Positions 27,592-46,502 of a stretch of DNA of 64,000 nucleotides are shown here, piece by piece. Source of the stretch: Candidatus Omnitrophota bacterium (GTDB taxonomy: Bacteria; Omnitrophota; Gorgyraeia; 2-01-FULL-45-10); NCBI GenBank assembly GCA_041650935.1, contig JBAZKH010000001.1:576911-640910 (forward strand), written 5' to 3'. Under the pieces are notes generated by a model, which saw only the letters and a program-made list of their open reading frames with translations, did no database searches and was not told the DNA's origin. How positions within the stretch are numbered: the first letter of the stretch is position 1; the number at the start of each line of letters is the position of its first letter. The position numbers were made by a program, and so were the translations under genes.

Positions 27592-29007
<1,416 letters not shown>

Positions 29008-31923: not shown

Positions 31924-32417
31924 TATTTCTTCTCCATCTCTCTTATGAAGGTCTCAACGATCTTTTTGTCATCTTCGGCCGTTAACCGTTCCTGGACCAC
32001 CTTGGCGGCTATATCTACCGTGAGGTTGGCGATAGTATCTTTTAATTCTTCCTCAGCTTTGGCCACCTCTTGCTTTATGGTCTCCTGCGTCTTGGCAAGT
32101 ATCTTTTCGCCCTCATCTCTCGCGTCCTGCCTTATCGCTTCCGCCGCGCATCTGGCCTCTTCAACGGCCTCCTCTATCCTTTTGCGCGCCTCCTCCTCGA
32201 CGCCGGCCATGGCCTTTTCGTAGTCGGCTCTTAGCCTGGAGGCCTCATCCCTTGCCGCGTCGATCGCCTTAAATTCCGCGGCGATGCGTTCCTTGCGGTC
32301 GTCGAGGACCTTCAGGAAAGGCCGCCACGCAAATCGCTTCATCAGGAAGAGGAGTATCAGAAACGTTACGACCTGCGCGACTATCTCATTCGTGCTTAAT
32401 AGCTTTAACAGTTCCAT
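31923..32417 (-). CDS. atpF: F-type ATP synthase subunit b
   Basis: 164 aa. One N-terminal TM, then a long charged coiled coil (AEEARKRIEEAVEEAR...). Confidence 0.8.
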   Translation of the reverse strand: MELLKLLSTNEIVAQVVTFLILLFLMKRFAWRPFLKVLDDRKERIAAEFKAIDAARDEASRLRADYEKAMAGVEEEARKRIEEAVEEARCAAEAIRQDARDEGEKILAKTQETIKQEVAKAEEELKDTIANLTVDIAAKVVQERLTAEDDKKIVETFIREMEKK

Positions 32418-32440
32418 CGCATCTTCGTTCTAACGGTCTC

Positions 32441-32671
32441 TTATATCTTCCCGGACAGGGCGAAGACGAATACGAGAGCGTATATTGTGAGCGCTTCGAT
32501 AAAGGCACATCCCGTAGCCATGTTTATCAATATCTTTGTCGCGGCCTCAGGCTGGCGGCCCGTTGCCTCCATAGCCGAAGCGACCGCTTTCCCGAGTCCC
32601 ATTGCGGAACCGAATGCCACTATGCCAAGGCCCAGTGGAAGCCCTATTGCAAGTACCGATTTATAATCCAT
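32441..32671 (-). CDS. atpE: F-type ATP synthase subunit c
   Basis: 76 aa two-helix hairpin. GxGxGxG helix 1. RQPE loop. Carboxylate in AFIEALTIY. Confidence 0.9.
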   Translation of the reverse strand: MDYKSVLAIGLPLGLGIVAFGSAMGLGKAVASAMEATGRQPEAATKILINMATGCAFIEALTIYALVFVFALSGKI

Positions 32672-32798
32672 CTTTTTCTCCTTTGACTTTAACTACCGTT
32701 ACCGGCAAATTTCAAATGGCAAAATCCAAATAACAAATGAAATCCAAAAACCCAATGTCAAAATTTAAAAATATAATTTTGTTATTGGTATTTGATAT

Positions 32799-33587
32799 TC
32801 ATTTGACATTTGATCTTTGGCATTTGTCATTATGTTCTGACTCCTCATGCGTCAATACAAGCGTAAAATATATCGTCGTCAGCAGGCAAAAGACGAGCGT
32901 TTGCACCAGTGAAACGACTATCGCCATAAGCGAATTGAATAGAAGCAGCGGCACTGCCTTGAGCCCATAACCGGCAAATACCGCAAGGAGCATATCATCG
33001 CCCCATATATTGCTCCTGAGCCTGAGTGACAGGCTTATCGGCCTTACGAGCTCGGATACGATGTGCAGGATAAACATCATGGCCGGGATGAAGACCGAAA
33101 ACGCCAGTATGCCCCTCGGCCTGCCTAAGGCATGGTCTATATAGCCCCAGAATCCAAGCTCCTTAAAACCGACGTACTGGACGTAAAAGAATACGCATAA
33201 CGCGAGCCCCAGCGTCGTCGACCAGCTGGTGGAGGGCGATTTTATAAGCGGTATGATACCCGCAAGATTCATGCAGAGTATATATATAAAGAGCGTGCCG
33301 ATGAAAGGGACGTACTCTTTCCCCTTCGCCCCGATGATGCCGCAGACAAAATCGTTCACACCGCTTACGAATGTCTCGAAGAAACTTTGCAGGCGGCCGG
33401 GTATGGGCGCGATCCTGCGGGACGCTCTTACGGCAACCAGAGTGATCAGGGCCACGATGATGAGCGAAAATATAAGATTCTCCCATCTCATCAGGCTATC
33501 CGCGAAAGCCGTTCCCGCGAATCTCTCGGCCAGGAGCGATACGGCGTTCGGGAGCTCCGCGCTTTTACTTACGCCCGTCTCGTGCAT
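32799..33587 (-). CDS. atpB: F-type ATP synthase subunit a
   Basis: 262 aa polytopic protein. Essential Arg context LSLRLRSNIWGDDM. The track start overlaps atpI by 19 nt, so the true start may lie at an internal Met. Confidence 0.85.
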   Translation of the reverse strand: MHETGVSKSAELPNAVSLLAERFAGTAFADSLMRWENLIFSLIIVALITLVAVRASRRIAPIPGRLQSFFETFVSGVNDFVCGIIGAKGKEYVPFIGTLFIYILCMNLAGIIPLIKSPSTSWSTTLGLALCVFFYVQYVGFKELGFWGYIDHALGRPRGILAFSVFIPAMMFILHIVSELVRPISLSLRLRSNIWGDDMLLAVFAGYGLKAVPLLLFNSLMAIVVSLVQTLVFCLLTTIYFTLVLTHEESEHNDKCQRSNVK

Positions 33588-33844
33588 AGCTTGGCTATCC
33601 CCATCGTAATAAGGGCCGCCGTCAACCCCGCCAGCAGGCTTGATAGCGGAAAGGTCTTAGAAATAACTATCAGGAACCCCGCAAGATATAGAACCGGAAA
33701 TTTCAGCAATATCAGGGCCCAGAGCTTCGCCGCGTCTTTCCGTAAGACGCTTATCTTAAGTATCGTTATCGTAAAATAGAAGTTCGCCGAGGACCATGCC
33801 GCGCCGACGATAAATCCCAGCAGCCATCTAAGAAGACTCTCCAT
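33569..33844 (-). CDS. atpI: ATP synthase protein I-like small membrane protein
   Basis: 91 aa, two TMs, immediately upstream of atpB. Confidence 0.45.
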   Translation of the reverse strand: MESLLRWLLGFIVGAAWSSANFYFTITILKISVLRKDAAKLWALILLKFPVLYLAGFLIVISKTFPLSSLLAGLTAALITMGIAKLCTRRA

Positions 33845-34077
33845 CAGGCTTCCATTTCTTTTTCTGTTTTGAGGGCCAGCCTGATTATCCTTACCGTCTC
33901 TTTGATGCTTGCTATAAATCCTATCGCAATAAAGATGATAGACGTAAAAGACGGCAGGGCGAACCGCTTTTCAAGGTAATCCGCCAGAAAATAACCGCCC
34001 ATCGGCCCCGCAACCATGGCGATAGGAATAAATGAGAGTAATCCACCTATTTTAATCCACTTATAGACTTTTGTCAA
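33844..34077 (-). CDS. atpZ: AtpZ/ATPase_gene1-like small membrane protein
   Basis: 77 aa, two TMs. Located before atpI. Its start overlaps the upstream hycI-like stop (ATGA). Confidence 0.5.
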   Translation of the reverse strand: MTKVYKWIKIGGLLSFIPIAMVAGPMGGYFLADYLEKRFALPSFTSIIFIAIGFIASIKETVRIIRLALKTEKEMEA

Positions 34078-34610
34078 TTGCGCGCCCCGGCAAAACTAAT
34101 CCTTTTTGCCCGTTGCCCATTGCCGACCGCTTTGGCTATTACAGCCGCTACTTCCCTGGATGAGTTCATTACGAGCCTGGACGGCGGCTTACCCAGGTCG
34201 ACCGATGCGGGTTGTATACCTATAAGGAACGGGTCACATTCGAACGAGTTTGAGAAATATTGCATCAATACCCTCGACGGCATTTTATGTGTGGAGAACG
34301 ATACGCCGTCGCCGATGTCGCGCGGGCTCAAGACTATTATCGAGCCGGGTTTCTCGCCAAACTCGACGCTGTCGACCAGGATTATATGGGACGGTGTGAA
34401 TCTTTTAATATCACCGGTAAGGTTTTCCGGGGCGGTTGCGCCTATGAATATTTTAAAGTTGCGGGCAGGTTTTTTTAATAGTCTCTTTACCTCTTCGGCC
34501 ACAAGTAGACCTGCCGCATCGTCCGATCTTAAGTCAGAGCCTATGGCAAGCAACGCCACCTTCTTAGCGTTTTTGAGCCTATCCTTTAGAAACTTCTCCA
34601 GTTTCGGCAC
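34074..34610 (-). CDS. Hydrogenase maturation endopeptidase (HycI/HyaD-like)
   Basis: 178 aa. ALLAIGSDLRSDDAAGLLVAE follows the xLGxGNxLxxDDGxG pattern of [NiFe] hydrogenase C-terminal processing proteases. The conserved H in STHKMP and acidic metal ligands are present. Confidence 0.7.
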   Translation of the reverse strand: MPKLEKFLKDRLKNAKKVALLAIGSDLRSDDAAGLLVAEEVKRLLKKPARNFKIFIGATAPENLTGDIKRFTPSHIILVDSVEFGEKPGSIIVLSPRDIGDGVSFSTHKMPSRVLMQYFSNSFECDPFLIGIQPASVDLGKPPSRLVMNSSREVAAVIAKAVGNGQRAKRISFAGARN

Positions 34611-34667
34611 GATGGAACCTCACGAATTATGCGTCAGGTGTGAAATCCGCCGAAGCCCTCCGTTATC

Positions 34668-35033
34668 TCAGTCAGTTGGCGTAGGCGGATAGGTCACCTT
34701 TAATTTATTTCTTTCCAGGGCGGCAAGCTCGAATTCTTTAGTCGCTTCTAGGGCCTTCTTCAGGCATGAGTCGACGCACTGGGCGCAATATATGCATTTA
34801 CCGAGGTCTATCTCACATTCAAATTTTTTGTCGCCGACTTTACGGATCTCTATGGCGCCCGACGGGCAATCCTTCATGCAGAGTTTACAGCCGATGCATC
34901 GTTCGGGATGGAACGCTATCCTTCCTCTGAAGTTGGCCGGCATCTGGGTTTTTTCGAATGGGTACTTCGTAGTAGCGGGTTTTTTAAATACGGATTCCAG
35001 GACCTGTTTTAACATCTTGCCGGGCCTTATCAT
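34668..35033 (-). CDS. 2x[4Fe-4S] ferredoxin subunit of membrane-bound hydrogenase (NuoI/EchF/MbhN-like)
   Basis: Two CxxCxxCxxxCP motifs (CIGCKLCMKDCP, CIYCAQCVDSC). ATGA overlap with the NuoH-like gene at 35030-35033. Confidence 0.8.
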   Translation of the reverse strand: MIRPGKMLKQVLESVFKKPATTKYPFEKTQMPANFRGRIAFHPERCIGCKLCMKDCPSGAIEIRKVGDKKFECEIDLGKCIYCAQCVDSCLKKALEATKEFELAALERNKLKVTYPPTPTD

Positions 35034-35968
35034 CGGACGATAAATCCTTTCAATATAAGGTCTATGAAGAGCTGTATGAACGCGAGCGGAGCAAGACATT
35101 TCCAACAAAAGCAGATCATCTGGTCTATACGCAGCCGGGCGAATATCGTTCTTAAGATAGAGAGGGTGCAGACTATGGCCAGCACCTTTAGGACAAACAG
35201 CAGGAATCCGGCCGCCGGACCAAGTCCGAGGCCAAATGGCAGATATACGGCAGATAAGAGCGCCGCGCCGACTATCGCCTCGATATCTATCCCCAGCCTG
35301 AAGAGCGCCAGGAGCCTTCCGCTATACTCGGTGAAGGTCCCGGCTACTATCTCTGTCTCCGCTTCCGGTATGTCGAACGGCACCTTCTCGAGTTTACCCA
35401 GCAGCGCTATCATGGAGATCGCGAAACCAAGGATATTGAATAACCAGAAAAATGGATGGACGGAATAGAATAATGACATTTCGCTTAAAGACCACGTGTC
35501 CGCAAGGAGCGCCGGGGCCAGTATGCTCATCAGGAGCGGGACTTCATACGCGAAGAGCTGTGTCAGCGCCCTTACCGCGCCGATCCTGGAGTAGAGCGAA
35601 GTCGAATACCAGCCGCCCAGGAAGAATGTCAGCGTCGGTATCGTCAATAGGTATAGGACGACGATCAGGTCGCCGCTAAAGGCATATATCGGGTTTACGC
35701 TCCACAACGGTATGTAGAAGATCGCCGTGATAGCGGCCGTTATGGCCAGGACCGGCATCAGTTTGAACATTGACGGGTTAGCTTCCTCAGGTATTATATC
35801 TTCCTTGGCTGAAAGTTTTATGAAGTCCGCGAGCGGCTGGAACCACGGAGGCCCTACTCTGTTCTGCAGCCTTGCGCAGAGTTTCCTGTCGACGAATTGA
35901 GCGGCCAGGCCAAATGCGCTTAGGAATAAAAACCCGGGGAATACCAGGATGTAAAATATGCTCATCAT
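35030..35968 (-). CDS. NuoH/EchB/MbhM-like membrane subunit
   Basis: 312 aa, polytopic. Complex-I subunit-1 signature region ARLQNRVGPPWFQPLADFIKL. Confidence 0.85.
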   Translation of the reverse strand: MMSIFYILVFPGFLFLSAFGLAAQFVDRKLCARLQNRVGPPWFQPLADFIKLSAKEDIIPEEANPSMFKLMPVLAITAAITAIFYIPLWSVNPIYAFSGDLIVVLYLLTIPTLTFFLGGWYSTSLYSRIGAVRALTQLFAYEVPLLMSILAPALLADTWSLSEMSLFYSVHPFFWLFNILGFAISMIALLGKLEKVPFDIPEAETEIVAGTFTEYSGRLLALFRLGIDIEAIVGAALLSAVYLPFGLGLGPAAGFLLFVLKVLAIVCTLSILRTIFARLRIDQMICFCWKCLAPLAFIQLFIDLILKGFIVR

Positions 35969-37191
35969 TATTTTAAGGCTTTCATCATCTTCTTGTTGAG
36001 ATCCGTAAAATCGATCCCATGCTCCCGGTAATATTGGATGCTATACGAATGGAGCTCTTCCCATTTCAAGACATCCTTCTTTCTCTTTCCAGCGCGCCTT
36101 ACTCCGGTCAGCCGGTCGGTGCAGGAGAAGCAAGGGTCGATCGCGGCGATCACTATCGGCAGGTCCGCAAGCTGCCTGTCCTCCAGCATCCGCGCAACGG
36201 TCTGTATATTGGCCAATGTCGGCGCGCGTACCTTTACCCTCTCGGGCTTCTCGGTTCCATCGGACTTTACGTAGTGCATGTCTTCGCCTCGCGGCGCTTC
36301 ATACCGGGAGACGGCCTCTCCGGCGGGTATCTTTCGCGGCACCTTTACAACGATAGGCCCTTCGGGCATATTCTTTATTATCTGACGGACGATGCTGTAC
36401 GATTCCAAAAGCTCGCCCGCGCGGACGAGCGTACGGCCATAGACATCGTTATGGTTGTCGGTGACGACCTTGAACTTAACGTCAGCGTATGCGGCATAGG
36501 GATCGTCTCTCCTGACGTCTCTGTCTACACCGGATGCCCTGGCGGTCGGACCAACTGCTCCCAGCTTCACGGCGTCTTTATTCGACAGGACCCCTACTCC
36601 CGAAAGTCTTTGGATGAGGGTCGTCTCTTTAGTGGCTATCTGGATATAATATTTTGTGCGTTCCTCGAGCGTGTCCATAGCTTTCAGTATCTCTTTGGCC
36701 TGCTCGGCCGTTACATTGCGCCTGACGCCGCCGATCGTATTGATGCCGTAATTTACGCGGTTTCCTGTAAGCATCGCGAGGATGTCCATAACGACTTCAC
36801 GGTCGCGCCACGTATACATAAGAAGCGTATCGAATCCCACCTCGTGCCCGGCTACGCCGAGCCACAGGAGGTGGCTGTGTATCCTCTCCAATTCTCCGAC
36901 GAGCGTCCTGATGTATAGAGCGCGTTTCGGTATTGGAGCGCCGGCGATCTCCTCAACTGCCTGCACAAAACATGTAGAATGTGAATGCGAGCATATGCCG
37001 CAGATGCGTTCGGTTAAATAGACATCCTGTATGTATGTTCTCTCTTCGCAGGCCTTCTCGATGCCTCGGTGATTATAGCCGAGCCGCGCGGAGAACTTCA
37101 TTATCCTCTCTCCGCTTAATGTCACGCTAAAGCTCTCGGGCTCTTTTAAAGCCGGGTGCTGAGGTCCTATGGGTATCACTACTTTATGCAT
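35968..37191 (-). CDS. [NiFe] hydrogenase large subunit, group 4 (NuoD/EchE/MbhL/HycE-like), with a C-terminal propeptide
   Basis: N-terminal Ni-binding L1 RICGICSHSH. C-terminal L2 DPCFSCTDR, followed by a roughly 47-aa extension. Confidence 0.85.
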   Translation of the reverse strand: MHKVVIPIGPQHPALKEPESFSVTLSGERIMKFSARLGYNHRGIEKACEERTYIQDVYLTERICGICSHSHSTCFVQAVEEIAGAPIPKRALYIRTLVGELERIHSHLLWLGVAGHEVGFDTLLMYTWRDREVVMDILAMLTGNRVNYGINTIGGVRRNVTAEQAKEILKAMDTLEERTKYYIQIATKETTLIQRLSGVGVLSNKDAVKLGAVGPTARASGVDRDVRRDDPYAAYADVKFKVVTDNHNDVYGRTLVRAGELLESYSIVRQIIKNMPEGPIVVKVPRKIPAGEAVSRYEAPRGEDMHYVKSDGTEKPERVKVRAPTLANIQTVARMLEDRQLADLPIVIAAIDPCFSCTDRLTGVRRAGKRKKDVLKWEELHSYSIQYYREHGIDFTDLNKKMMKALK

Positions 37192-37660
37192 TGGTCTTAA
37201 CCTCGTCTTTCTCGGGCTCTTTTTTCCAATCTTTTCGCAAAGGATATTCGCCCGGCGGCCAGTCATCCGATAGAGGATATCGCTTCCCTTCGGGAAGGCC
37301 CTGGACCTTTGCCCCTAAAAGATCCATCAATTCTCTTTCGTAAATATCGGCGGCAGGAAAATACCCCGTTATAGTCTTTATGACCGGGTTCACCCTGTCC
37401 GCCTTTACCTTTATATTTAACATGATACCATCTTCCCTGCCGACGTGATATATAAATCCCAGCGCTGCGCCTTCATCAAGGCCCGTTATGGTCGAAAGTA
37501 TCACAAAGCCAAGCTTCTGCACGGCATATTCGAATATATCTTTAAAAGAATCCAAGGGCACCTCGGCAAATATGCGCCGCGGCCTCTGGATCCTCGTCCG
37601 ACCTTCAAGAAATCCGAATTTTTTGATCAGTTCGCTCTGGATCGATTCTTCTTTGGTCAC
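37184..37660 (-). CDS. NuoC/EchD/MbhK-like 30-kDa subunit
   Basis: Start placed at GTG 37660, in a GTGA overlap with the NuoB-like stop. The track ATG at 37741 would overlap the upstream gene by 85 nt. Conserved ...FGFL...DL.G...EGHPxLRRL-like region IYERELMDLLG. Confidence 0.7.
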   Translation of the reverse strand: MTKEESIQSELIKKFGFLEGRTRIQRPRRIFAEVPLDSFKDIFEYAVQKLGFVILSTITGLDEGAALGFIYHVGREDGIMLNIKVKADRVNPVIKTITGYFPAADIYERELMDLLGAKVQGLPEGKRYPLSDDWPPGEYPLRKDWKKEPEKDEVKTNA

Positions 37661-38106
37661 TTTTTCTTCTCTTCCTTGTTCTCGAGGCTCGTCAGCAGTT
37701 TTACCACCCCGTCGATTATCGCCTTGGGGCTTGCCGGACATCCGGGGATATATGCCGAAACCGGTATAACCTTGTCGATCCCGGATTCTACGCTGTAACA
37801 GCCGTCAAATACCCCGCCCGAACATGCGCACGTCCCGACCACGACGACAAATTTCGGCGCCGGCATCTGATCGTAGATCCTTTTAAGCCTGTCTTTTATC
37901 TGGCGTGTCACGGGGCCGGAACAGACCAATACGTCGGCGTGTCTCGGCGTGCCTTTAAGTTGTACGCCGAAACGCTCCAGGTCATAGCGCGGAGTGAGCG
38001 CCGCTATTATCTCGATATCGCAGGCGTTGCACGCGCCGGTATTGAAATGGAGTATCCACGGCGATTTTATCCTGGACCATGTGACGATCTTTTGGACCAA
38101 TCCCAT
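37657..38106 (-). CDS. NuoB/EchC/MbhJ-like [NiFe] hydrogenase small subunit
   Basis: 149 aa. Cys ligands in GACNACDIE, GTCACSGG and IPGCPASP. Nuo 20-kDa fold. Confidence 0.85.
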   Translation of the reverse strand: MGLVQKIVTWSRIKSPWILHFNTGACNACDIEIIAALTPRYDLERFGVQLKGTPRHADVLVCSGPVTRQIKDRLKRIYDQMPAPKFVVVVGTCACSGGVFDGCYSVESGIDKVIPVSAYIPGCPASPKAIIDGVVKLLTSLENKEEKKK

Positions 38107-38112
38107 CTGCGG

Positions 38113-38451
38113 TTATCTCCTGAAAAGTATGACGAGCCCCGTTATGGCGGCCGTTATATATATCACGGCTATCACGAACGACCCGACGGTTACAAGCGGC
38201 ACGGTCGCGATAGTCAAAGTAAATACGTGGAGGAGCGTAAAGAAGAAAGCGAAAGGAAAGAACTGGCTGTAGTCGGGCTGCACCATATTCACCGGCGGCT
38301 CTTCCCCGCACGCATATGATTTCTCCGCCCCTTCCCCATGCGTTTTACTCTTATACGATAAAGCCGATAACAATTTTAAAAAGATAAGCATGCCGGCGAG
38401 CGTTATCACAAAAGCTGCCGGCGGTGTCAATAAGATATCGTTTAGAGTCAC
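38113..38451 (-). CDS. NuoA-like three-TM membrane subunit
   Basis: 112 aa. KSYACGEEP resembles the NuoA K..YECG loop motif, followed by an FF..A..F..L helix. Confidence 0.45.
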   Translation of the reverse strand: MTLNDILLTPPAAFVITLAGMLIFLKLLSALSYKSKTHGEGAEKSYACGEEPPVNMVQPDYSQFFPFAFFFTLLHVFTLTIATVPLVTVGSFVIAVIYITAAITGLVILFRR

Positions 38452-38456
38452 TTTAG

Positions 38457-38777
38457 TTAACCTTTCAAATTCTTAAGGTTCCTTACATCGAGAGAATCGG
38501 TGTGTCTGAAGACAGACAGCGCAATGCCTGCGGCCGTGGCCGCGACTACGACTTCTATAATGATGATAGTTATGACCAGGCTCTGGGCCAGCGCGGCGCG
38601 CCCGGTTATATCGCCGACCACGATGATGAGAAGCGTGACGGCCTTTACCAATAACTCGATGCCTATTATGGCGCGGATCATGCTGCGGGTTACGACGAGG
38701 CAATATGCGCCGCAGACAAATAACAGTATGATGAAAAATCCGAACGTGCTAAAGGTCTGCCAATTACCGCTTATCAT
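38457..38777 (-). CDS. NuoK/MrpC/MbhG-like membrane subunit
   Basis: About 107 aa from the internal Met. Three TMs. Conserved Glu in IIIIEVVVAATAAG. Confidence 0.55.
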   Translation of the reverse strand: MISGNWQTFSTFGFFIILLFVCGAYCLVVTRSMIRAIIGIELLVKAVTLLIIVVGDITGRAALAQSLVITIIIIEVVVAATAAGIALSVFRHTDSLDVRNLKNLKG

Positions 38778-39267
38778 TCTTCGTCTCCTCGAATAGCATA
38801 ACCACTCCAAGCGCGCCTGCGATCAGGATCATTACCTGGCCAAGGAGGTCCAGCCTCCTTAAGTCCCACAGCATCGTCCGGACATCGATCGCCGATTCCA
38901 GGGGTTTGGCCATCGCAGGGCCCTGCCCTGCCTTCATACAAACAAGCCCGGCGCCGATAACGACCAGGATGACGGGCAGATACCAGTACCGTTTCATCCT
39001 GTCTTTAGATGCCTGGAGTATCTGGTTATGCGTCAGCGGTTTCGTAAGGCTTATGGTGCTGACAAAGATCGCCGTTATGAGGCCTGCGCAGACGGAGAGT
39101 TCAAAGACCGCGGCAAGCGGTGAATTGAGCCTGAAAATTATTACTGCTATAAGGGCGCTTGTCACGGCTAGCCCTATAGTCGCCTTCAAAAGGCTCCTGG
39201 CCATGACTGTCCATAGCGCCGCTACGGTTGTGAGTATCAAGAGCGCGATATTCATGTCCATATTCAT
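38764..39267 (-). CDS. MnhB/MrpB-like membrane subunit
   Basis: 167 aa, four TMs, glycine-zipper helices. Its position between the antiporter-like and NuoK-like genes is typical of Mrp/Mbh modules. Confidence 0.5.
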   Translation of the reverse strand: MNMDMNIALLILTTVAALWTVMARSLLKATIGLAVTSALIAVIIFRLNSPLAAVFELSVCAGLITAIFVSTISLTKPLTHNQILQASKDRMKRYWYLPVILVVIGAGLVCMKAGQGPAMAKPLESAIDVRTMLWDLRRLDLLGQVMILIAGALGVVMLFEETKNDKR

Positions 39268-39269
39268 AA

Positions 39270-40709
39270 TTACCTTATCAGTATCTCTTTTACGGGCGAT
39301 ATGAGCGTGGTATATACAAACGGAAAGAATACTCCAACGCCTGCGATGATTGCGGCCAGGATTATCGATACGCCTATAACGCCTTTATCCGCATCTTTTA
39401 TATTTTCTAATCCAACTTTAAGCTTACCGAAGAATACGCGGCGCTGCATCGATAAGAAATACGCAAGGGTGATCACGCTTGCAATGACGGCCAGCGCCGC
39501 ATATGTATATTGACCCGCCTGCCAGAGCGCTATGACGATTATCAATTTCGACCAGAAACCGGAGAGCGGAGGAATGCCGCACGTCGATAGAAAAGCTATG
39601 ACCGAAGTGGTTCCTGTGACCGGCATCCGCTGTGAAATGCCGCCCATCTTGTTCATGTTACAGGTGCCCGTTTCCTTCTCCACAACGGCTGAATTTACGA
39701 AGAGGAGCGATTTGAAGACCGAATGGTTAAAGAGATGGAAGACCGCCCCCGCGATGCCTAATCCCGTTCCTGCGCCGAGCCCGAGTATTATATATCCTAT
39801 CTGGCTTATGCTGGAATACGCAAGCATGCGCTTAAAATTATCCTGGCCTATGGCGGCGATCGCGCCGACAAATATCGATATCGTCCCGATGAACATTAGG
39901 ATGGAATTTACGGCCTGGTCGTAAGGAAATAGAGATGTCACTATCCTGATCAGCGTGTATATGCCTGCGGCCTTAGTCACTATGCCTGCCAGGAGTATCG
40001 ACGCCGGCGCCGGCGCCGCCATATACGCGTCCGGCAGCCACCCATGAAAAGGCACGAGCCCCCCCTTTATGAATAGTCCGCAGATAAAGAGGCCGACAGC
40101 CAGGATGACGAGCGAGCTATTGCGCGAGGCTCCTATACCGGCCGCTATTGCGGAGAATGATGTACTGCCCGAGACCAGAAGCAATAAACCGATGGATGAG
40201 AGCATGAGGACCGTTGCTACCGCCGACAGGATGAGATACTTGAATGAGCCCTCGAGCGACTCGAGGCTCTTCGGATAAGCTATCAAAAGAAACGATGAAA
40301 CGGCGGTTATCTCCATGAATACATAGAGCGAAAAGATGTCCTTTACCATTATTATCCCGCTCATGCCCAGGGATGCCAATATGAGGAGGTTCGTAAATTT
40401 GAATCTGCCGGACTCTTCCGCCATCGTATATCGCGCAACGAAGAGGCTGGTGATCGAAACCATCCCGATGCAGATGAACATTATGAAGCTTAAATGATCG
40501 ACGAAAAAACTTACCCCGAAGAATGAATCTATGCGGTCCAGAGAGTTTTTCCAGAGGAATGGGTGGTGGAAGACGGCAACCACGATCTGCAGTACAAATA
40601 CCGCCAGGGCAAATAAAAACGCCCACCTCCTCATTCTGACGTTTCCGGCAAATAAGAGGTTCAGTATAATTACGCCGAATAATGGGATCAATATCATCAA
40701 TGACGGCAC
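39270..40709 (-). CDS. Antiporter-like subunit, NuoM/MrpD family
   Basis: 479 aa, 14 TMs. Motifs VPFHGWLPDAYMAAPAPASILLAGIVTKAAGIY and HSVFKSLLF. Confidence 0.8.
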   Translation of the reverse strand: MPSLMILIPLFGVIILNLLFAGNVRMRRWAFLFALAVFVLQIVVAVFHHPFLWKNSLDRIDSFFGVSFFVDHLSFIMFICIGMVSITSLFVARYTMAEESGRFKFTNLLILASLGMSGIIMVKDIFSLYVFMEITAVSSFLLIAYPKSLESLEGSFKYLILSAVATVLMLSSIGLLLLVSGSTSFSAIAAGIGASRNSSLVILAVGLFICGLFIKGGLVPFHGWLPDAYMAAPAPASILLAGIVTKAAGIYTLIRIVTSLFPYDQAVNSILMFIGTISIFVGAIAAIGQDNFKRMLAYSSISQIGYIILGLGAGTGLGIAGAVFHLFNHSVFKSLLFVNSAVVEKETGTCNMNKMGGISQRMPVTGTTSVIAFLSTCGIPPLSGFWSKLIIVIALWQAGQYTYAALAVIASVITLAYFLSMQRRVFFGKLKVGLENIKDADKGVIGVSIILAAIIAGVGVFFPFVYTTLISPVKEILIR

Positions 40710-40760
40710 TTAATATCCTCTCGTATTAGCAGCCGGCATTTAAATGCCGGCTGCGGCTTT

Positions 40761-42596
40761 TTAGATCGCGCGCATTAAAAAGATTATGACGAGCACTGCC
40801 GCGCCCAGCGACCAGAGTATATACAACGGATAACTGCCGCTATGCATCCTTCTTATCGTTAGGGCAGTTTGATCCGTTACGGTGACTATGAGGCTGTTAT
40901 ATACCCAATCTATCGCCTTATCGGCCCGGGCCGCAATACTTGAAATAAAGTTTATGATCGAGAACCCTATGTTGTAGGGGTCGAAATAACCTTCCTCCGC
41001 CCGGGAATATATCCAGCCCAATACCGGCGCATAATGTATATGGTCCACCGCGCCTATCCCCTTCCCGGTCTTCTTGACGCCATAGATGTGATTTAAGAAG
41101 GCACCCATTAAGACGGCCAGAGAAATAATGACGAGCATGGCATTTGCCGGAAAACCGGAATAATTACGCCCCGCCAGCCTCTCGGGTCCGAGTATCGGTT
41201 GTATTAGGAATTTGAGCGGCAAGGCATTGTAAACGCCGAACAATATACATGCGCCCGCAATAATTATCATCGGCGTTAGCATGGCAAGCGGAGCCTCTTT
41301 TACTTTATCGTTGCGCTTATCCAGCTTGCCCAGGAATGCCGCGTGTCCGAGCTTTAGAAATGAGGCGGCCGTAAAGAACGAACCTATGACGGCAGCCAGA
41401 TAAAAGATCCGCCCGCGTTCAAGCGCGCCGTCATACACCAGTTCCTTGGAAAAGAAACCGTTTAATGGCGGGAAGCCGGATATCGCAAGGGCCGTGATGA
41501 TGAAACATATAAAGGTAACCGGCATCTTCTTCCCGATGCCGCCGAGTTCCTCCAGGTTCGTAGTGCCCGCTTCTTTCTCTACGGCGCCGCCTGTTAAAAA
41601 CAGGCAGCTCTTATACATCGCGTTGTTGATCATGTGGAATATGCCGCCTATTATACCGGCGGGAACGAGCGTGCCGATACCCAGGACCATGTAGCCGATC
41701 TGGCTTATAGCATGGTACGAGAGGAGCTTCTTGTAATCCTTCTGAACGAGCGCCATCATGACGGCAAATATTATGGTTATGGCGCCGACCGTCATGAGCA
41801 TGTAGCTTGCCCATGAATTCAGCTCCAGCTTAAACATGTCGAGCGAGATCCTGGTTAGGAAATATATGCCGAGTATCTTTTCGAGCGCTCCGGGGAATAT
41901 GGCCATGAATGGCAGCGGCGCGTCGATCGCGGCGTCGGGTATCCAGCTATGAAAAGGCATCGCCCCGGACTTTGCTATGGCGCCTATGACGAGGAAGGTA
42001 AAGGCCAGCCCCCCAAGCCCGGCGAGACTGATCGCGGTTACGCCGAGGTTGAACGTGCAGGCAATATGGCCGTATATCGCCATGCCGACCATCATGAAGA
42101 GGTCGCTCAATCCTACGATGATAAAGGCCTTCGTGGCCGTCTTGAATGCCGTCTTGCCGCCCAGGGCGATCAGGCCAAGCTGTGTCATGAGAAGCGCTTC
42201 CCAGAAAAAGAAAATGGCCAGAAGGTTGCTTGCCAGCGCCGCGCCGTTCAAGAACGACAGCGATGCCAGGAAAAATATATAAAAATATTTTGAGTAGTTC
42301 TTCTTGAACGCGAATACGCTCGTATAAAGGCTTATAAGAAAGCCAAAGACGGCGGAGGCGCCTATCGTAAATGCGCTATAGTGGTAGAGCCTTAAATTAA
42401 ATTCGAACGCGCCGAAACCCGCCCACGGCATTGAATATGAAAGATTGCTCCTGAATAAGCATATGGCGACGATGAGATTGGCCAGTGTCCCGATAAGGGT
42501 GATAGCTTCCTTTACGCCTTTCATCTTCTTTGGGATAAACAGGGCGATAACGGCTGATACGATCGGAATCAGTATAGGTAATAATATCGGGTTCAT
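40761..42596 (-). CDS. Antiporter-like subunit, NuoL/MrpA family
   Basis: 611 aa. MPFHSWIPDAAIDAPLPFMAIFPGALEKILGIY. Long C-terminal extension consistent with L-type. Confidence 0.8.
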   Translation of the reverse strand: MNPILLPILIPIVSAVIALFIPKKMKGVKEAITLIGTLANLIVAICLFRSNLSYSMPWAGFGAFEFNLRLYHYSAFTIGASAVFGFLISLYTSVFAFKKNYSKYFYIFFLASLSFLNGAALASNLLAIFFFWEALLMTQLGLIALGGKTAFKTATKAFIIVGLSDLFMMVGMAIYGHIACTFNLGVTAISLAGLGGLAFTFLVIGAIAKSGAMPFHSWIPDAAIDAPLPFMAIFPGALEKILGIYFLTRISLDMFKLELNSWASYMLMTVGAITIIFAVMMALVQKDYKKLLSYHAISQIGYMVLGIGTLVPAGIIGGIFHMINNAMYKSCLFLTGGAVEKEAGTTNLEELGGIGKKMPVTFICFIITALAISGFPPLNGFFSKELVYDGALERGRIFYLAAVIGSFFTAASFLKLGHAAFLGKLDKRNDKVKEAPLAMLTPMIIIAGACILFGVYNALPLKFLIQPILGPERLAGRNYSGFPANAMLVIISLAVLMGAFLNHIYGVKKTGKGIGAVDHIHYAPVLGWIYSRAEEGYFDPYNIGFSIINFISSIAARADKAIDWVYNSLIVTVTDQTALTIRRMHSGSYPLYILWSLGAAVLVIIFLMRAI

Positions 42597-44036
42597 CTAT
42601 ATCCCCATCATCTGCTTTATGGCCATACGGACAAAATCAGACGGATATTTAATATATATGCCGCTCAAAAGAGAAAGTGCTGCCAGTATAGCCACCGAAG
42701 CCACCATCAATTTCGAGCCTTCTTTTGCGGTAAGCGCGCCTGAGCCCAGAAATATCGCGTTAAAGAGCCTGAATAGATAGAGTATCGTGAGGAGCGCGCA
42801 TACCAAAAACGCTATGGTTATAAAAGTCTGGCCGCTATTGACGGCTCCGGAGAATACGAGGTACTTGCTGAAGAAACCGCCGAACGGCGGAATGCCCATT
42901 ATCGAGAAGGCGCAAGCCAGAAACGATATCGCGGTCACGGGCATCGTCGCAAAGAGGCCGCCCATCTTCGTTATGTCTTTTGTCCCGGCATTCTGTTCCA
43001 CTATGCCCGCGCATAAAAATAGCCCGCCTTTGGCGAGCCCGTGCATCAGTATAAAGAGCAGCGCTCCGGCCGCTCCCACGCCGTTGCCTACGGCGAAGCC
43101 CAGGAATATGAAAGCGATCTGACTGACGGTCGAGTATGCTATGATCCTCTTCATATCCGTCTCTATCAGGGCCGCGCCCGCGGCGACGATCGCGCTGGAG
43201 GCCGCGATTATAGGCATGGCGGTTAGCCATAATATTCCTACGGGAAAAGTCACCACGAACAAACGCGCAAAGACATAGACTCCTATCTTTACAAGGACCG
43301 CCGCATGGAGCAGTGCCGTAACAGGAGACGGCGCAACGCCGGCATCCGGCAGCCACGTATGGAACGGCAGTGTAGCTGATTTTGAAAGTATCCCCAAAAG
43401 GATCAGGACGACGACGAAGTCAGGAATGGGATTGGACTTTAGGGCGGTTTTAATGACCGCAAGGTCGAATGATCCCGTCTTCCCATAAATATAGAGGAAG
43501 CCGATGAGCATGGCTAAGGCGCCGAAGACAGTGACGAGGAACGCTTTATCCGCCCTTATGACGTGCGTTTTTTCCCTGAAAAAACCTATTAAACGCCAGC
43601 TTGCTAGAGCAGTTATCTCCCAGAATACGAATAAGAGGATCAGGTTTGCGGAATAGACCAACCCCATCATCGAACCCAGGAAGAGCACGACCATGAGGTA
43701 GTATTCATTGCGGTTGTCGTAATGGCTTATATATCCGAACGAATACAGGACTATTATCGCGCCGACAAGCGATGAGACGAGCGCCATGAAGACCGCCAGG
43801 CCGTCTGCGGCGAGTGAGAAATTAAACCCTAATGGTAATTCTATGGATATAGCCGGTATCTTACCTGCGAGGACAGCCGGCACGAGGAGACTTGAACCGG
43901 CTAAGGATACGCATACAAATATAAGCGCGAGAGCATTTCGTAACCGCTCGGATATCCTTCCGGCAACCGGCAGTAAAAACGAGCCTATGACAGGAACGAA
44001 TATTATCGCTAGAAGGTAGTGATTTTCCATCGACAT
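42597..44036 (-). CDS. Antiporter-like subunit, NuoN/MrpD family
   Basis: 479 aa. LPFHTWLPDAGVAPSPVTALLHAAVLVKIGVY. Confidence 0.8.
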   Translation of the reverse strand: MSMENHYLLAIIFVPVIGSFLLPVAGRISERLRNALALIFVCVSLAGSSLLVPAVLAGKIPAISIELPLGFNFSLAADGLAVFMALVSSLVGAIIVLYSFGYISHYDNRNEYYLMVVLFLGSMMGLVYSANLILLFVFWEITALASWRLIGFFREKTHVIRADKAFLVTVFGALAMLIGFLYIYGKTGSFDLAVIKTALKSNPIPDFVVVLILLGILSKSATLPFHTWLPDAGVAPSPVTALLHAAVLVKIGVYVFARLFVVTFPVGILWLTAMPIIAASSAIVAAGAALIETDMKRIIAYSTVSQIAFIFLGFAVGNGVGAAGALLFILMHGLAKGGLFLCAGIVEQNAGTKDITKMGGLFATMPVTAISFLACAFSIMGIPPFGGFFSKYLVFSGAVNSGQTFITIAFLVCALLTILYLFRLFNAIFLGSGALTAKEGSKLMVASVAILAALSLLSGIYIKYPSDFVRMAIKQMMGI

Positions 44037-44046
44037 GGCCTAAATA

Positions 44047-46474: not shown

Positions 46475-46502
46475 ATTATAAGCGTTAAACAGAGCTTGTC
46501 AA
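46475..46502 (-). promoter_or_regulatory. Consensus sigma70 promoter (TTGACA-16-TATAAT) for hppA and the downstream cluster
   Basis: On the minus strand: -35 ttgaca (plus 46497-46502), 16-nt spacer, -10 tataat (plus 46475-46480). Predicted 5' UTR of about 95 nt before the hppA ATG at 46371. Confidence 0.45.

What the first reader, a model, noticed from the sequence alone, without database searches (positions are those of the whole stretch)
34074..44036. Hydrogenase-type complex with intact Ni-binding cysteines but a complex-I-like complement of three antiporter-like subunits
The NuoD-like subunit keeps both [NiFe] ligand motifs (RICGICSHSH and DPCFSCTDR), carries a roughly 47-aa C-terminal propeptide, and a HycI-type protease is encoded in cis. 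It is therefore a true hydrogenase, not an Ehr or complex-I paralogue. The membrane arm nevertheless has three NuoL/M/N-type antiporter-like genes plus MnhB-like, NuoK-like and NuoA-like genes. That is more than Ech (none) or Mbh (one) carry, and is closest to Hyf, yet no formate-dehydrogenase or HyfA-type genes lie nearby. No clear NuoJ homologue and no MrpEFG were seen. The small subunit has a CxxC (GACNACDIE) cluster ligand arrangement and an extra Cys in GTCACSGG. This looks like an under-described group-4 subtype.
Basis: partly seen in the sequence, partly recalled or inferred. Interest (0 to 1): 0.65.

Follow-up and report, generated by a model that had tools for sequence, protein, structure and literature searches.

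The report
Complex-I-like eleven-subunit nickel-iron hydrogenase operon
This is a real membrane-bound nickel-iron hydrogenase operon from an Omnitrophota bacterium that carries a counterpart of all eleven core complex I subunits, including three proton-pump-like subunits; it is widespread in uncultured anaerobes and already catalogued, but nobody has characterised it biochemically.

Summary
Window 34074-44036 (minus strand) is a tightly packed 12-gene operon: three antiporter-like genes, NuoJ/MbhD-, NuoK- and NuoA-like genes, then NuoB-, C-, D-, H- and I-like genes and a HycI protease. The large subunit keeps both Ni motifs and a 47-aa tail that aligns with the E. coli HycE tail.

The same cassette, in the same order, occurs in all 80 related loci examined wherever the contig reaches far enough. 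These span Omnitrophota, Planctomycetota, Kiritimatiellia, Elusimicrobiota, Saganbacteria and Margulisbacteria. All 80 keep the Ni cysteines.

The catalytic module is closest to P. furiosus MBH, not to Hyf. The large subunit forms its own clade (100% bootstrap) outside the MbhL and HycE/HyfG clades. A published HydDB call for the 72%-identical Velamenicoccus orthologue is group 4g, a catch-all of unknown function.

The CxxC in the small subunit is normal for group 4. No MrpEFG, formate dehydrogenase or HycB-type module is present or conserved nearby.

Most likely this is a ferredoxin-linked, reversible, proton-translocating hydrogenase. It is often linked to an H+-pyrophosphatase and an ATP synthase. 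It is a new architectural variant of a known kind, of moderate interest.

The parts
42597..44036 (-). AL1: antiporter-like subunit, 479 aa, with a MrpA/NuoL-type core and no C-terminal extension
   Evidence: PF00361 plus PF00662. Best PDB matches are MrpA 7qru_A at 213 bits, then NdhF and Nqo12. It has TM5 Glu140, TM7 Lys219, TM8 Lys250 and TM12 Lys391. It is naturally fused to AL2 in Margulisbacteria and Phycisphaerae.
40761..42596 (-). AL2: antiporter-like subunit, 611 aa, with a MrpD/MbhH-type core plus a NuoL-like C-terminal TM15, lateral helix and TM16
   Evidence: PF00361. Full-length match to the NCBIfam NuoL model. Best PDB sequence matches are MbhH and MrpD; M. smegmatis NuoL aligns over residues 58-607. 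AF2 model pLDDT 84.8, with helix 540-584 and TM 589-610. Best fold hits are NuoL chains at TM-score 0.77. Carries NuoL-type D165, H321 and E385.
39270..40709 (-). AL3: antiporter-like subunit, 479 aa, MrpD/MbhH/NuoM-N type
   Evidence: PF00361. Best PDB matches are MbhH 202 bits, MbsH 198 and MrpD 197. Has Glu133, Lys215 and Lys388.
40729..40754 (.). GC-rich 11-bp-stem palindrome in the only sizeable intergenic gap of the operon (AL2/AL3 junction)
   Evidence: It is absent from the closest relatives, but several other loci have unrelated structured inserts at the same junction.
38764..39267 (-). NuoJ equivalent, 167 aa: N-terminus MbhD/MbsD-like (DUF4040), C-terminus weakly MbsE-like
   Evidence: Profile of 33 orthologues hits MbsD 6e-10, MbhD 1e-8, E. 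coli NuoJ 3e-3 and MbsE 0.09. 33 of 33 orthologues hit PF00499 and 29 of 33 hit PF13244.
38457..38777 (-). NuoK/MrpC-like subunit (probable ATG at 38777; the ORF extends to 38810)
   Evidence: PF00420 at 2e-16. PDB matches: NdhE, MbsG, MbhG, NuoK. Two membrane Glu residues are visible in the sequence.
38113..38451 (-). NuoA/ND3-like subunit, 112 aa, apparently three TM segments by my reading of the sequence (not run through a predictor), with an invariant YACGE motif in the TM1-2 loop
   Evidence: PF00507 hit in 29 of 33 orthologues, best 1.6e-5. The profile hits ND3 chains at E 0.023 with Y-x-C-G aligned.
37657..38106 (-). Hydrogenase small subunit (NuoB-like) with the CxxC...C...CP [4Fe-4S] ligand pattern
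   Evidence: PF01058. Best PDB match is MbhJ at 164 bits with the same CxxC. GACN[AG]CDIE occurs in 74 of 76 orthologues; the clade-specific second Cys in G-T-C-A-C occurs in most.
37184..37741 (-). NuoC-like subunit, a separate gene; the N-terminal ~30 aa are low-complexity and not conserved
   Evidence: PF00329. Only 18 orthologues cover 85% or more of its length.
35968..37191 (-). [NiFe] large subunit, 407 aa, with a 47-aa C-terminal tail
   Evidence: PF00346 plus PF00374. Motifs and tail length. Best PDB matches: MbhL 343 bits, HycE 268, Nqo4 229. A 100%-identical protein occurs on a 710-kb Omnitrophota MAG contig.
35030..35968 (-). NuoH-like membrane anchor
   Evidence: PF00146. Best PDB matches: MbhM 150 bits, Nqo8 121, HycD 84.
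34668..35033 (-). NuoI-like 2x[4Fe-4S] subunit (probable ATG at 35033, overlapping the NuoH stop codon); presumed ferredoxin entry point
   Evidence: Fer4 families. Motifs CIGCKLCMKDCP and CIYCAQCVDSC are visible in the sequence.
34074..34610 (-). HycI-type maturation endopeptidase
   Evidence: PF01750. 29% identity to E. coli HycI at E 9e-21, with the residues aligned to its GDD, VDA and THNMP motifs conserved. Present in nearly all loci.
44047..46371 (-). Linked neighbour: membrane pyrophosphatase (GNTTKA, K+-independent type), 10 nt upstream of AL1
   Evidence: PF03030 at 1e-238. A PPase lies within 10 kb of the cassette in 23 of 80 loci, in several arrangements.
46475..46502 (-). Perfect sigma-70 consensus (TTGACA-16-TATAAT) about 100 nt upstream of the PPase gene; candidate promoter of the whole block
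   Evidence: This is a consensus match only.
27592..34077 (-). Linked neighbour: F-type ATP synthase operon (atpZ, atpI-like, a, c, b, delta, alpha, gamma, beta), starting at the HycI stop codon
   Evidence: The same adjacency occurs in 11 of 80 loci.

Best explanation
This is an 11-subunit, membrane-bound, energy-converting [NiFe] hydrogenase with its own HycI maturation protease.

Proposed mechanism:
- Ferredoxin exchanges electrons with the NuoI-like 2x[4Fe-4S] subunit.
- Electrons pass through the single [4Fe-4S] cluster of the NuoB-like small subunit to the [NiFe] site in the NuoD-like large subunit, where protons are reduced to H2 (or H2 is oxidised).
- The reaction is coupled, through the NuoH/NuoA/NuoJ/NuoK-like junction, to a row of three antiporter-like subunits. 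All three keep their charged-residue chain. One of them (AL2) carries a NuoL-type lateral helix.
- There is no MrpEFG/MbhABC sodium module, so the coupling ion is most likely H+.

The free energy of ferredoxin to H+ is small. A pump with this many channels can therefore run forward only when partners keep H2 very low (about 1-10 Pa). Otherwise it runs backwards, using proton-motive force to make reduced ferredoxin from H2. The frequent linkage to an H+-pyrophosphatase and an F-type ATP synthase fits a shared proton circuit.

Shown here: gene content, ligands, conservation and homologies. Inferred: the ferredoxin partner, H+ as the ion, stoichiometry, direction and subunit order.
For: - Ni ligands, tail and protease are present and conserved in 80 of 80 orthologues.
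- All 11 Nuo-type core subunits were identified.
- The B, D and H subunits are closest to ferredoxin-dependent P. furiosus MBH.
- There is no extra electron-input gene (FDH, CooS/F, HycB, NuoEFG) in the cassette, and none is conserved in the flanks of the 80 loci.
- TM5 Glu, TM7 Lys and TM12 Lys are aligned in all three antiporter-like subunits. The central TM8 Lys is aligned in AL1. In AL2 and AL3 a Lys sits one residue away from the aligned column, which I read as an alignment offset.
- AL2's NuoL-like lateral helix is supported.
- No MrpE/F/G family was found in the cassette or in the window ORFs scanned.
- Thermodynamics: about 0.4-1.4 H+ per 2e- are affordable at 1 atm H2, and about 2-3.9 at 1 Pa. 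Purified T. kivui Ech2, a 4g enzyme, shows Fd-dependent H2 evolution coupled to H+ translocation and the reverse reaction (PMC9356269).
- A PPase lies next to the cassette in 23 of 80 loci and an ATP synthase in 11 of 80.
Against: - There are no biochemical data for any member of this clade.
- The electron partner is inferred only from the absence of other modules; an unlinked partner cannot be excluded.
- Ion specificity cannot be read from sequence with confidence.
- Three or four pumping sites look excessive for the Fd/H+ couple, so some modules may not pump, or may exchange ions.
- hyp maturation genes are not in the window.
- The NuoA assignment rests on weak scores (E about 1e-5 to 0.02).
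Confidence: 0.7

Rival explanations
1. It is an MBH-style sodium machine. The antiporter-like subunits act as an Mrp-type Na+/H+ exchanger, so H2 evolution ends up exporting Na+.
For: The catalytic module is closest to MBH. AL1 is most similar to MrpA, and AL2/AL3 to MrpD/MbhH. MAG papers label these enzymes 'Mrp-linked' or 'Mbh-Mrp type' (PMC8542988, bioRxiv 10.1101/765248).
Against: No MrpE/F/G or MbhA/B/C homologue is in the cassette or the scanned window ORFs, and none was recognised among the families shared by the flanks of 80 loci. The linked PPase has the K+-independent GNTTKA signature, which by established knowledge marks H+ pumps. The linked ATP synthase c subunit lacks the Q...E-S/T Na+ motif; this is my own reading and was not tested further.
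Confidence: 0.15
2. It is the hydrogenase core of a formate- or CO-dependent hydrogen-lyase (Hyf/FHL-2-like or Coo-like) whose dehydrogenase is encoded elsewhere.
For: It has three antiporter-like subunits, as in Hyf (PMC13645896). The AL2 C-terminus aligns with the HyfB and HycC C-termini. Some Omnitrophota encode CooS/F (PMC10066038).
Against: The large subunit lies outside the HycE/HyfG clade (99-100% bootstrap). NuoC and NuoD are not fused. There is no HycB/HyfA connector subunit, which FHL needs to wire FdhF. No FDH, CooS or FocA gene was recognised among the most widely shared gene families in the flanks of the 80 loci.
Confidence: 0.07
3. Physiologically it is mainly an uptake enzyme: a pmf-driven H2:ferredoxin oxidoreductase, like Eha/Ehb or Ech in methanogens. 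It would supply reduced ferredoxin to the Wood-Ljungdahl pathway, with the pmf provided by the adjacent PPase or ATPase.
For: A high number of proton channels suits uphill ferredoxin reduction at low H2. Many Gorgyraia and Velamenicoccia carrying a 4g enzyme are predicted acetogens with a (partial) WLP (PMC10066038). T. kivui Ech2 works in both directions (PMC9356269). PPase and ATP synthase linkage is seen.
Against: The same cassette also occurs in lineages such as Phycisphaerae, Kiritimatiellia and Endomicrobiales. Whether those lineages lack the Wood-Ljungdahl pathway is my recollection, not something tested or read here. Direction cannot be read from sequence. This is a special case of the main explanation rather than an exclusive rival.
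Confidence: 0.3
4. It is a degenerate or non-hydrogenase complex I relative (Ehr-like) that merely resembles a hydrogenase.
For: NCBIfam's best model for the large subunit is 'NuoD' at 349 bits, just under the cut-off of 360. The nearest neighbouring clade contains three 50%-identity clusters that have lost both Ni motifs.
Against: Both Ni motifs, the tail and the cis protease are intact and invariant in 80 of 80 orthologues. The small subunit has the hydrogenase CxxC, not the complex I tandem CC.
Confidence: 0.02

Closest known systems
P. furiosus membrane-bound hydrogenase MBH (HydDB group 4d; PDB 6CFW)
   Same: It is the closest solved relative of the large subunit (343 bits), small subunit (164 bits) and NuoH-like subunit (150 bits). 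It shares the gene order ...I/A-J(B)-K(C)-L(D)-M(H)-N(I), the separate NuoC- and NuoD-like genes, the CxxC small subunit, the MbhD-like and MbhG-like small membrane subunits, and the presumed ferredoxin donor.
   Different: MBH has one antiporter-like subunit and a MbhA-C/F (MrpEFG/B) sodium module (PMC8165549). Here there are three antiporter-like subunits and no sodium module. In MBH the lateral helix sits on the small MbhI subunit; here it sits on AL2, and the small subunit is ND3-like. The large subunit lies outside the MbhL clade.
E. coli / Pectobacterium Hyf (hydrogenase-4, FHL-2; group 4a)
   Same: Three antiporter-like subunits plus a NuoK-like subunit and a NuoH-like anchor (PMC13645896). 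A C-terminal tail homologous to that of E. coli HycE, and a HycI-type protease, by comparison with the E. coli hyc (hydrogenase-3) proteins. The AL2 C-terminus resembles the HyfB C-terminus.
   Different: Hyf has a fused NuoCD-type large subunit, a HyfA four-cluster connector, an FdhF partner, HyfJ/HyfR/FocB and a different gene order. None of these is present here. Large-subunit identity is only 36-38% and the clade is separate. In FHL the ND3-like loop is fused to HycC (PMC9474812). Here it is a separate NuoA-like protein, and the AL2 extension lacks the CG motif.
Respiratory complex I, 11-subunit core (NuoA,B,C,D,H,I,J,K,L,M,N; also Fpo and NDH-1)
   Same: A one-to-one set of homologues for all 11 core subunits. 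Three antiporter-like subunits, one with a NuoL-like TM15, lateral helix and TM16 (TM-score 0.77 to NuoL). A separate ND3-like subunit with the conserved Cys loop.
   Different: This enzyme keeps the [NiFe] ligands, the tail and the protease. Its small subunit has CxxC, not tandem CC. The lateral helix sits on a MrpD-type core rather than on the MrpA/NuoL-type core. Gene order differs. The relative orientation of the membrane arm is unknown.
Thermoanaerobacter kivui Ech2 (the biochemically characterised enzyme placed in group 4g)
   Same: The same HydDB bin by proxy. A Fd:H+ oxidoreductase with demonstrated H+ translocation and reversibility (PMC9356269, PMC13582414).
   Different: Ech2 has eight subunits: two EchA-like subunits, HycB2, and no NuoJ/K/A-type subunit listed among them (PMC9356269). 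Group 4g is polyphyletic (PMC13582414), so sharing the label does not imply close kinship. I could not obtain the Ech2 sequence to test this.
P. furiosus MBS/Mbx (PDB 6U8Y)
   Same: More than one antiporter-like subunit. MbsH' carries a lateral helix plus TM15-16, like AL2. MbsD is the best match of the J subunit (PMC8165549).
   Different: MBS has lost the Ni site and reduces polysulfide. It has two antiporter-like subunits and keeps the MbsA-C sodium module. Its large subunit is much more distant (197 bits).

Membership tests
[NiFe] hydrogenase, group 4 (energy-converting) | N-terminal RxCGxCxxxH and C-terminal DPCxxC Ni/Fe ligand motifs in a NuoD-like large subunit | tested here: met
   RICGICSHSH at residue 62 and DPCFSCTDR at residue 352. 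Conserved in 80 of 80 orthologues.
[NiFe] hydrogenase, group 4 (energy-converting) | NuoB-like small subunit with one [4Fe-4S] cluster (CxxC...C...CP), plus NuoH-like and antiporter-like membrane subunits and a 2x[4Fe-4S] subunit | tested here: met
[NiFe] hydrogenase, group 4 (energy-converting) | C-terminal tail removed by a dedicated endopeptidase | tested here: inconclusive
   A 47-aa tail homologous to the HycE tail, and a cis HycI that keeps the residues aligned to the GDD, VDA and THNMP motifs of E. coli HycI. Cleavage itself cannot be tested in silico.
HydDB group 4g (putative ferredoxin-coupled, unknown function) | HydDB classifier assignment of the large subunit | not testable with these tools
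   By proxy only. The V. archaeovorus enzyme, classified 4g in PMC10066038, presumably corresponds to the 72%-identical orthologue with the same cassette in locus L047. The Omnitrophota Saelkia and Gorgyraea enzymes are also 4g (PMC8542988). 4g is a polyphyletic catch-all (PMC5037454, PMC13582414).
MBH / group 4d (ferredoxin-coupled, Mrp-linked) | MrpEFG/MbhABC-type sodium module in the complex | tested here: not met
   None of the 12 cassette proteins, and none of the other window ORFs scanned, hits MrpE/F/G families. None was recognised among the families shared by the flanks of the 80 loci.
MBH / group 4d (ferredoxin-coupled, Mrp-linked) | Large subunit clusters with Thermococcales MbhL | tested here: not met
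   The MbhL group (93% bootstrap) excludes the window clade (100%) in the NJ tree. Deep branching is unresolved.
Hyf/Hyc formate hydrogenlyase (group 4a) | Fused NuoC-NuoD large subunit that clusters with HycE/HyfG | tested here: not met
   The NuoC-like gene is separate. The HycE/HyfG clade (99-100% bootstrap) excludes the window clade.
Hyf/Hyc formate hydrogenlyase (group 4a) | HycB/HyfA connector and formate dehydrogenase partner | tested here: not met
   Absent from the cassette and the scanned window ORFs, and not recognised among the families shared by the flanks of 80 loci. An unlinked partner elsewhere in the genome cannot be excluded.
Ech (group 4e) | Six-subunit complex with a single antiporter-like EchA and no NuoJ/K/A-type subunits | tested here: not met
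   Eleven structural genes, three of them antiporter-like.
Ehr / Mbx-type hydrogenase-related complexes | Loss of the Ni-binding cysteines | tested here: not met
   Both motifs are intact.
Respiratory complex I (11-subunit core) | Homologues of NuoA, B, C, D, H, I, J, K, L, M and N | tested here: met
   The NuoA and NuoJ assignments rest on weak but consistent profile hits across orthologues.
Respiratory complex I (11-subunit core) | Quinone site in place of the [NiFe] site; tandem-Cys ligation of cluster N2 in NuoB | tested here: not met
   Ni ligands are retained. The small subunit has CxxC, like MbhJ, whereas the complex I chains align with CC.
Respiratory complex I (11-subunit core) | Membrane arm orientation H-(A,J,K)-N-M-L, with the lateral helix from the distal subunit | not testable with these tools
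   No multimer modelling was available. The AF2 model of a natural AL1-AL2 fusion had pTM 0.57, and its coordinates could not be inspected.

The most novel reading that the evidence does not exclude
This widespread enzyme may be a living [NiFe] hydrogenase whose membrane arm is built like that of complex I. It would have a separate ND3-like subunit, NuoJ/K-like subunits and a NuoL-type lateral helix clamping a row of three proton pumps. The arm would be in the complex I orientation rather than the 180-degree-rotated MBH/MBS/FHL orientation. That would make it the closest extant model of the hydrogenase-to-complex-I transition. It would also be a hydrogenase with a much higher H+/2e- ratio than any characterised one, workable only at syntrophic H2 levels or in reverse.
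Probability: 0.2. Interest if true: 0.8.

Novelty: new variant of a known kind. Interest (0 to 1): 0.5.

Why it matters
Characterised energy-converting hydrogenases have one (MBH, FHL-1) or two (T. kivui Ech2) antiporter-like subunits. MBS, which has lost the Ni site, also has two. Only the poorly understood Hyf has three.

Here a ferredoxin-type hydrogenase without any extra redox module carries the full 11-subunit complement of complex I. It is conserved almost unchanged across at least half a dozen phyla of uncultured anaerobes.

That raises a concrete bioenergetic question. How can three or four proton channels be driven by the tiny Fd/H+ energy gap? Possible answers are very low H2, reverse operation, or non-pumping modules.

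It also offers an experimentally reachable intermediate for the long-standing problem of how complex I evolved from hydrogenases. The recurrent linkage to an H+-pyrophosphatase and an ATP synthase suggests a compact proton circuit that could be central to the energy budget of Omnitrophota and similar ultra-small or syntrophic bacteria.

Tried and rejected
1. Hyf membership was rejected. The large subunit sits outside the HycE/HyfG clade, NuoC and NuoD are unfused, and there is no HyfA.

2. MBH sensu stricto was rejected. There is no MrpEFG/MbhABC module, there are three antiporter-like subunits, and the clade is separate.

3. I looked for a hidden electron-input partner by clustering all flank ORFs of the 80 loci. 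Nothing was shared by more than 11 loci. The most widely shared families, recognised by eye from their representative sequences, look like ATP synthase gamma and ExbB/ExbD-like proteins.

4. I tried to work out the order of the antiporter-like subunits by modelling a natural AL1-AL2 fusion (P0207).

5. A first Biopython bootstrap tree timed out. I replaced it with a numpy NJ implementation. Deep nodes remain unresolved; for example, sisterhood with the P0241 group has only 33% support.

6. The AL2/AL3 intergenic hairpin was considered as a conserved regulatory element. It is not conserved in close relatives.

7. A direct comparison with T. kivui Ech2 or HydDB reference sequences was not possible.

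8. Two literature 'find' calls failed on a term of two characters and were repeated.

Full report
**What is there**

The window comes from a Candidatus Omnitrophota MAG. The large subunit and the 611-aa membrane subunit each match, at 100% identity, a protein found on a 710-kb Omnitrophota contig.

On the minus strand, 44036 to 34074 is filled by twelve ORFs. Their start and stop codons overlap or lie only a few bases apart, with one exception: a 51-nt gap between the second and third genes. In order of transcription:
- AL1, 479 aa
- AL2, 611 aa
- AL3, 479 aa
- a 167-aa 'J' protein
- a NuoK-like protein
- a 112-aa 'A' protein
- NuoB-, NuoC-, NuoD-, NuoH- and NuoI-like proteins
- a HycI protease

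A membrane pyrophosphatase gene ends 10 nt upstream of AL1. A complete F-type ATP synthase operon starts at the HycI stop codon. A perfect TTGACA-16-TATAAT match lies about 100 nt upstream of the pyrophosphatase gene. This is a consensus match only.

**Check of the observation**

- The 407-aa large subunit carries RICGICSHSH (residue 62) and DPCFSCTDR (residue 352). Exactly 47 residues follow.
- That tail aligns residue by residue with the stretch of E. coli HycE that follows its DPCYSCTDR motif. By established knowledge, HycI removes that stretch from HycE.
- The window's protease is 29% identical to E. coli HycI (E 9e-21). It keeps the residues that align with the GDD, VDA and THNMP motifs of E. 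coli HycI, which I take to be its metal ligands.
- The NuoI-like protein has two CxxCxxCxxxC motifs.
- The three large membrane proteins are all PF00361.
- No formate dehydrogenase, HycB/HyfA or MrpE/F/G was found in the cassette or in the other window ORFs that I scanned.

The 167-aa 'MnhB-like' gene is the NuoJ equivalent:
- A profile of 33 orthologues hits MbsD (6e-10), MbhD (1e-8), E. coli NuoJ (3e-3) and, at its C-terminus, MbsE (0.09).
- 33 of 33 orthologues hit Pfam NuoJ/ND6 and 29 of 33 hit MbhD.

The 112-aa protein is ND3/NuoA-like:
- 29 of 33 orthologues hit PF00507, best 1.6e-5.
- The profile aligns its invariant Y-A-C-G-E loop with the Y/F-E-C-G loop of ND3.

The enzyme therefore has a counterpart of every one of the 11 core complex I subunits.

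**Conservation**

A scan of one genome per GTDB species found more than 500 relatives of the large subunit. The best 80 are 70-93% identical. They come from Omnitrophota, Phycisphaerae/Sedimentisphaerales, Kiritimatiellia/Verrucomicrobiota, Elusimicrobiota/Endomicrobiales, Saganbacteria and Margulisbacteria. They include the complete genome of Candidatus Velamenicoccus archaeovorus LiM.

Wherever the contig reaches far enough, the same twelve genes occur in the same order. Further points:
- All 80 large subunits keep both Ni motifs, with tails of 35-71 aa.
- 74 of 76 small subunits keep GACN[AG]CDIE.
- Most small subunits keep the extra Cys in G-T-C-A-C.
- Median identity to the window is 81% for the small subunit, 74% for the large subunit, and 50-65% for the membrane subunits.

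Clustering of all flank ORFs found no further widely shared neighbour, so no dedicated electron-input module travels with the cassette. A pyrophosphatase lies within 10 kb in 23 of the 80 loci. It appears upstream, downstream, or on the opposite strand. An ATP synthase operon follows HycI in 11 loci. That is far more than one would expect for single-copy genes, by my own rough estimate.

**Which family**

Against solved structures, the closest relatives are the P. furiosus MBH subunits:

| Subunit | MBH | Next best matches |
|---|---|---|
| Large (D) | MbhL 343 bits | HycE 268, Nqo4 229, MbsL 197 |
| Small (B) | MbhJ 164 bits | NdhK 128 |
| Anchor (H) | MbhM 150 bits | Nqo8 121; HycD 84 |

MbhJ has the same CxxC as the window's small subunit, whereas the complex I chains align with CC.

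A search of 1.84 billion cluster representatives shows that the whole 70-100% clade collapses into one 50% cluster. Its nearest neighbours are only 53-59% identical. They are unnamed or come from Methanoregula, Anaerolineales, Bathyarchaeota and Asgard MAGs.

In an NJ tree of 93 sequences:
- the window clade has 100% bootstrap support;
- the MbhL group (93%) and the E. coli HycE/HyfG clade (99-100%) exclude it;
- deeper nodes are unresolved.

HydDB itself was not available. However, Seymour et al. (PMC10066038) used it to classify the V. archaeovorus enzyme as 4g. Its orthologue in L047 has the same cassette at 72% identity. Williams et al. (PMC8542988) report 4g for other Omnitrophota.

[quoted passage not shown] Other MAG studies call such enzymes 'Mbh-Mrp type' (bioRxiv 10.1101/765248; PMC6349859). 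The one characterised 4g enzyme, T. kivui Ech2, has eight subunits. Two are EchA-like, and no NuoJ/K/A-type subunit is listed among them (PMC9356269).

The class is thus catalogued but uncharacterised. Within the literature I could search, I found no description of this subunit architecture.

**The membrane arm**

- AL1 has the PF00662 N-terminal domain and is closest to MrpA, NdhF and NuoL. At 479 aa it lacks their C-terminal extension.
- AL3 is MrpD/MbhH/MbsH-like.
- AL2 has a MrpD/MbhH-like core and a 140-residue extension. It matches the NuoL NCBIfam model end to end.

An AF2 model of AL2 (pLDDT 84.8, pTM 0.82) shows TM15 (486-510), short helices, a 45-residue helix (540-584) and TM16 (589-610). 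I read the long helix as a NuoL-type lateral helix; it has seven charged residues among 45. The best fold matches are NuoL chains over the full length, at TM-score 0.77. MbhH and MrpD cover only the core.

AL2 also has equivalents of NuoL D178, H334 and D400 (D165, H321, E385). These are invariant among 50 homologues.

All three subunits keep the TM5 Glu, TM7 Lys and TM12 Lys. The central TM8 Lys is aligned in AL1. In AL2 and AL3 a Lys sits one residue away from the aligned column, which I read as an alignment offset. So all three look competent for proton transfer.

In FHL and MBS the ND3-like loop is fused to the helix-bearing antiporter-like subunit (PMC9474812, PMC8165549). Here the AL2 extension lacks the C-G motif that HycC and HyfB show at the aligned position. 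The loop sits instead on a separate ND3-like protein, as in complex I.

Natural AL1-AL2 fusions exist in Margulisbacteria (about 1000 aa, with AL2 lacking its first 50-68 residues) and in Phycisphaerae (about 1100 aa). This suggests that AL1 and AL2 are neighbours.

I could not establish the order of the subunits. I also could not establish whether the arm has the complex I orientation or the 180-degree-rotated MBH/MBS/FHL orientation. The fusion model had pTM 0.57, and its coordinates could not be inspected.

**How it most likely works**

Shown here:
- an intact, conserved [NiFe] catalytic module with its maturation protease;
- a single 2x[4Fe-4S] entry subunit and no other redox module;
- a NuoH/A/J/K-like junction;
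- three apparently functional antiporter-like subunits;
- no sodium module.

Inferred:
- Ferredoxin is the redox partner, as for MBH and Ech.
- The coupling ion is H+. The linked pyrophosphatase has the GNTTKA (K+-independent) signature, and by established knowledge that type pumps H+. The linked c subunit lacks the Na+ motif. Both points are my own reading.

The energetics are the interesting part (compare PMC9356269):

| H2 partial pressure | H+ affordable per 2e- |
|---|---|
| 1 atm | about 0.4-1.4 |
| 10 Pa | about 1.7-3.4 |
| 1 Pa | about 2-3.9 |

These figures assume ferredoxin at -450 to -500 mV and a proton-motive force of 120-180 mV.

A machine with three antiporter-like channels plus a junction channel therefore has three options:
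- it works forward only at syntrophic H2 levels;
- it works in reverse, with pmf-driven reduction of ferredoxin by H2, which could feed the Wood-Ljungdahl pathway predicted in many of these Omnitrophota (PMC10066038);
- not every module pumps.

Linkage to a pyrophosphatase and an ATP synthase fits a shared proton circuit in either direction.

**Verdict**

The enzyme belongs to a widespread clade that is already catalogued as '4g' or 'Mbh-Mrp type' but has never been characterised. I rate it a new architectural variant of a known kind, with moderate interest. Interest would be high if the arm proves to have complex I topology or a high H+/2e- ratio.

Noticed in passing
window 27592-46502 (minus strand): The pyrophosphatase gene, the 12 hydrogenase genes and the whole F-type ATP synthase operon form one uninterrupted same-strand block of about 19 kb. 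A perfect sigma-70 consensus lies upstream of hppA. An 11/12 consensus (34077-34049) sits exactly at the HycI/atpZ junction, where the annotated TTG start of atpZ coincides with the -35 hexamer. The same three-part block occurs in the closest relatives L001, L002, L003 and L013.
   Followed up: partly
loci L001-L080: A membrane pyrophosphatase lies within 10 kb of the hydrogenase cassette in 23 of 80 loci from several phyla, in at least three arrangements: upstream, directly downstream, or downstream on the opposite strand. This suggests selection for linkage rather than shared ancestry of one arrangement.
   Followed up: partly
proteins P0207, P0177, P0430, P0431 (Margulisbacteria); P0432, P0433 (Phycisphaerae): Natural fusions of AL1 and AL2 into a single protein of 1000-1100 aa. 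In the Margulisbacteria version, the first 50-68 residues of AL2 are missing. Other double antiporter-like fusions of about 1250 aa, annotated 'Hydrogenase-4 component B', occur in Proteobacteria.
   Followed up: partly
proteins P0256, P0284, P0320: The clade nearest to the window's large subunit is the P0241 group (92% bootstrap). It contains three 50%-identity clusters that have lost both Ni-binding motifs. One is annotated 'NADH dehydrogenase subunit' in Firmicutes MAGs. Hydrogenase-to-non-hydrogenase transitions therefore seem to have happened close to this lineage. Sisterhood with the window clade is weakly supported (33%).
   Followed up: partly
window 40729-40754, and the AL2/AL3 junction in L025, L032, L039, L041, L043, L051, L079, L080: The only sizeable intergenic gap in the operon holds a GC-rich 11-bp-stem palindrome. 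It is absent from the closest relatives. Several distant loci carry unrelated structured or repetitive inserts (55-366 nt) at the same junction, as if it were a hot spot for small insertions.
   Followed up: partly
window 37657-38106 (small subunit): A second cysteine two residues after the third cluster ligand (G-T-C-A-C-S-G-G) is conserved in most of the 76 orthologues. It is absent from MbhJ (GACPTGGS) and from the complex I NuoB chains aligned. Its role is unknown.
   Followed up: partly
window 10184-12486 (minus strand): A pair of genes resembling NfnAB/SudAB: a glutamate-synthase-small-subunit-like FAD/FeS protein plus a DHODB-type FeS/NAD-binding protein. They could be a ferredoxin:NADP-type oxidoreductase feeding the same ferredoxin pool.
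   Followed up: no
window 21552-23639 (plus strand): A Ski2/HelY-like DEAD-box helicase with a DSHCT (NUC185) domain. It is one of very few plus-strand genes in a window that is otherwise almost entirely minus-strand.
   Followed up: no
window 54409-61798: Four separate PilZ-domain proteins, one fused to a STAS domain, lie within 7 kb. This suggests a local c-di-GMP signalling cluster.
   Followed up: no
window 32441-32671 and 44047-46371: The ATP synthase c subunit lacks the Gln / Glu-Ser/Thr Na+-binding signature. The pyrophosphatase has GNTTKA (the K+-independent type). Both point to a proton-based rather than sodium-based energy economy, whereas some MAG papers annotate HppA as a sodium pump. 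This rests on my reading of the sequences and was not tested further.
   Followed up: no
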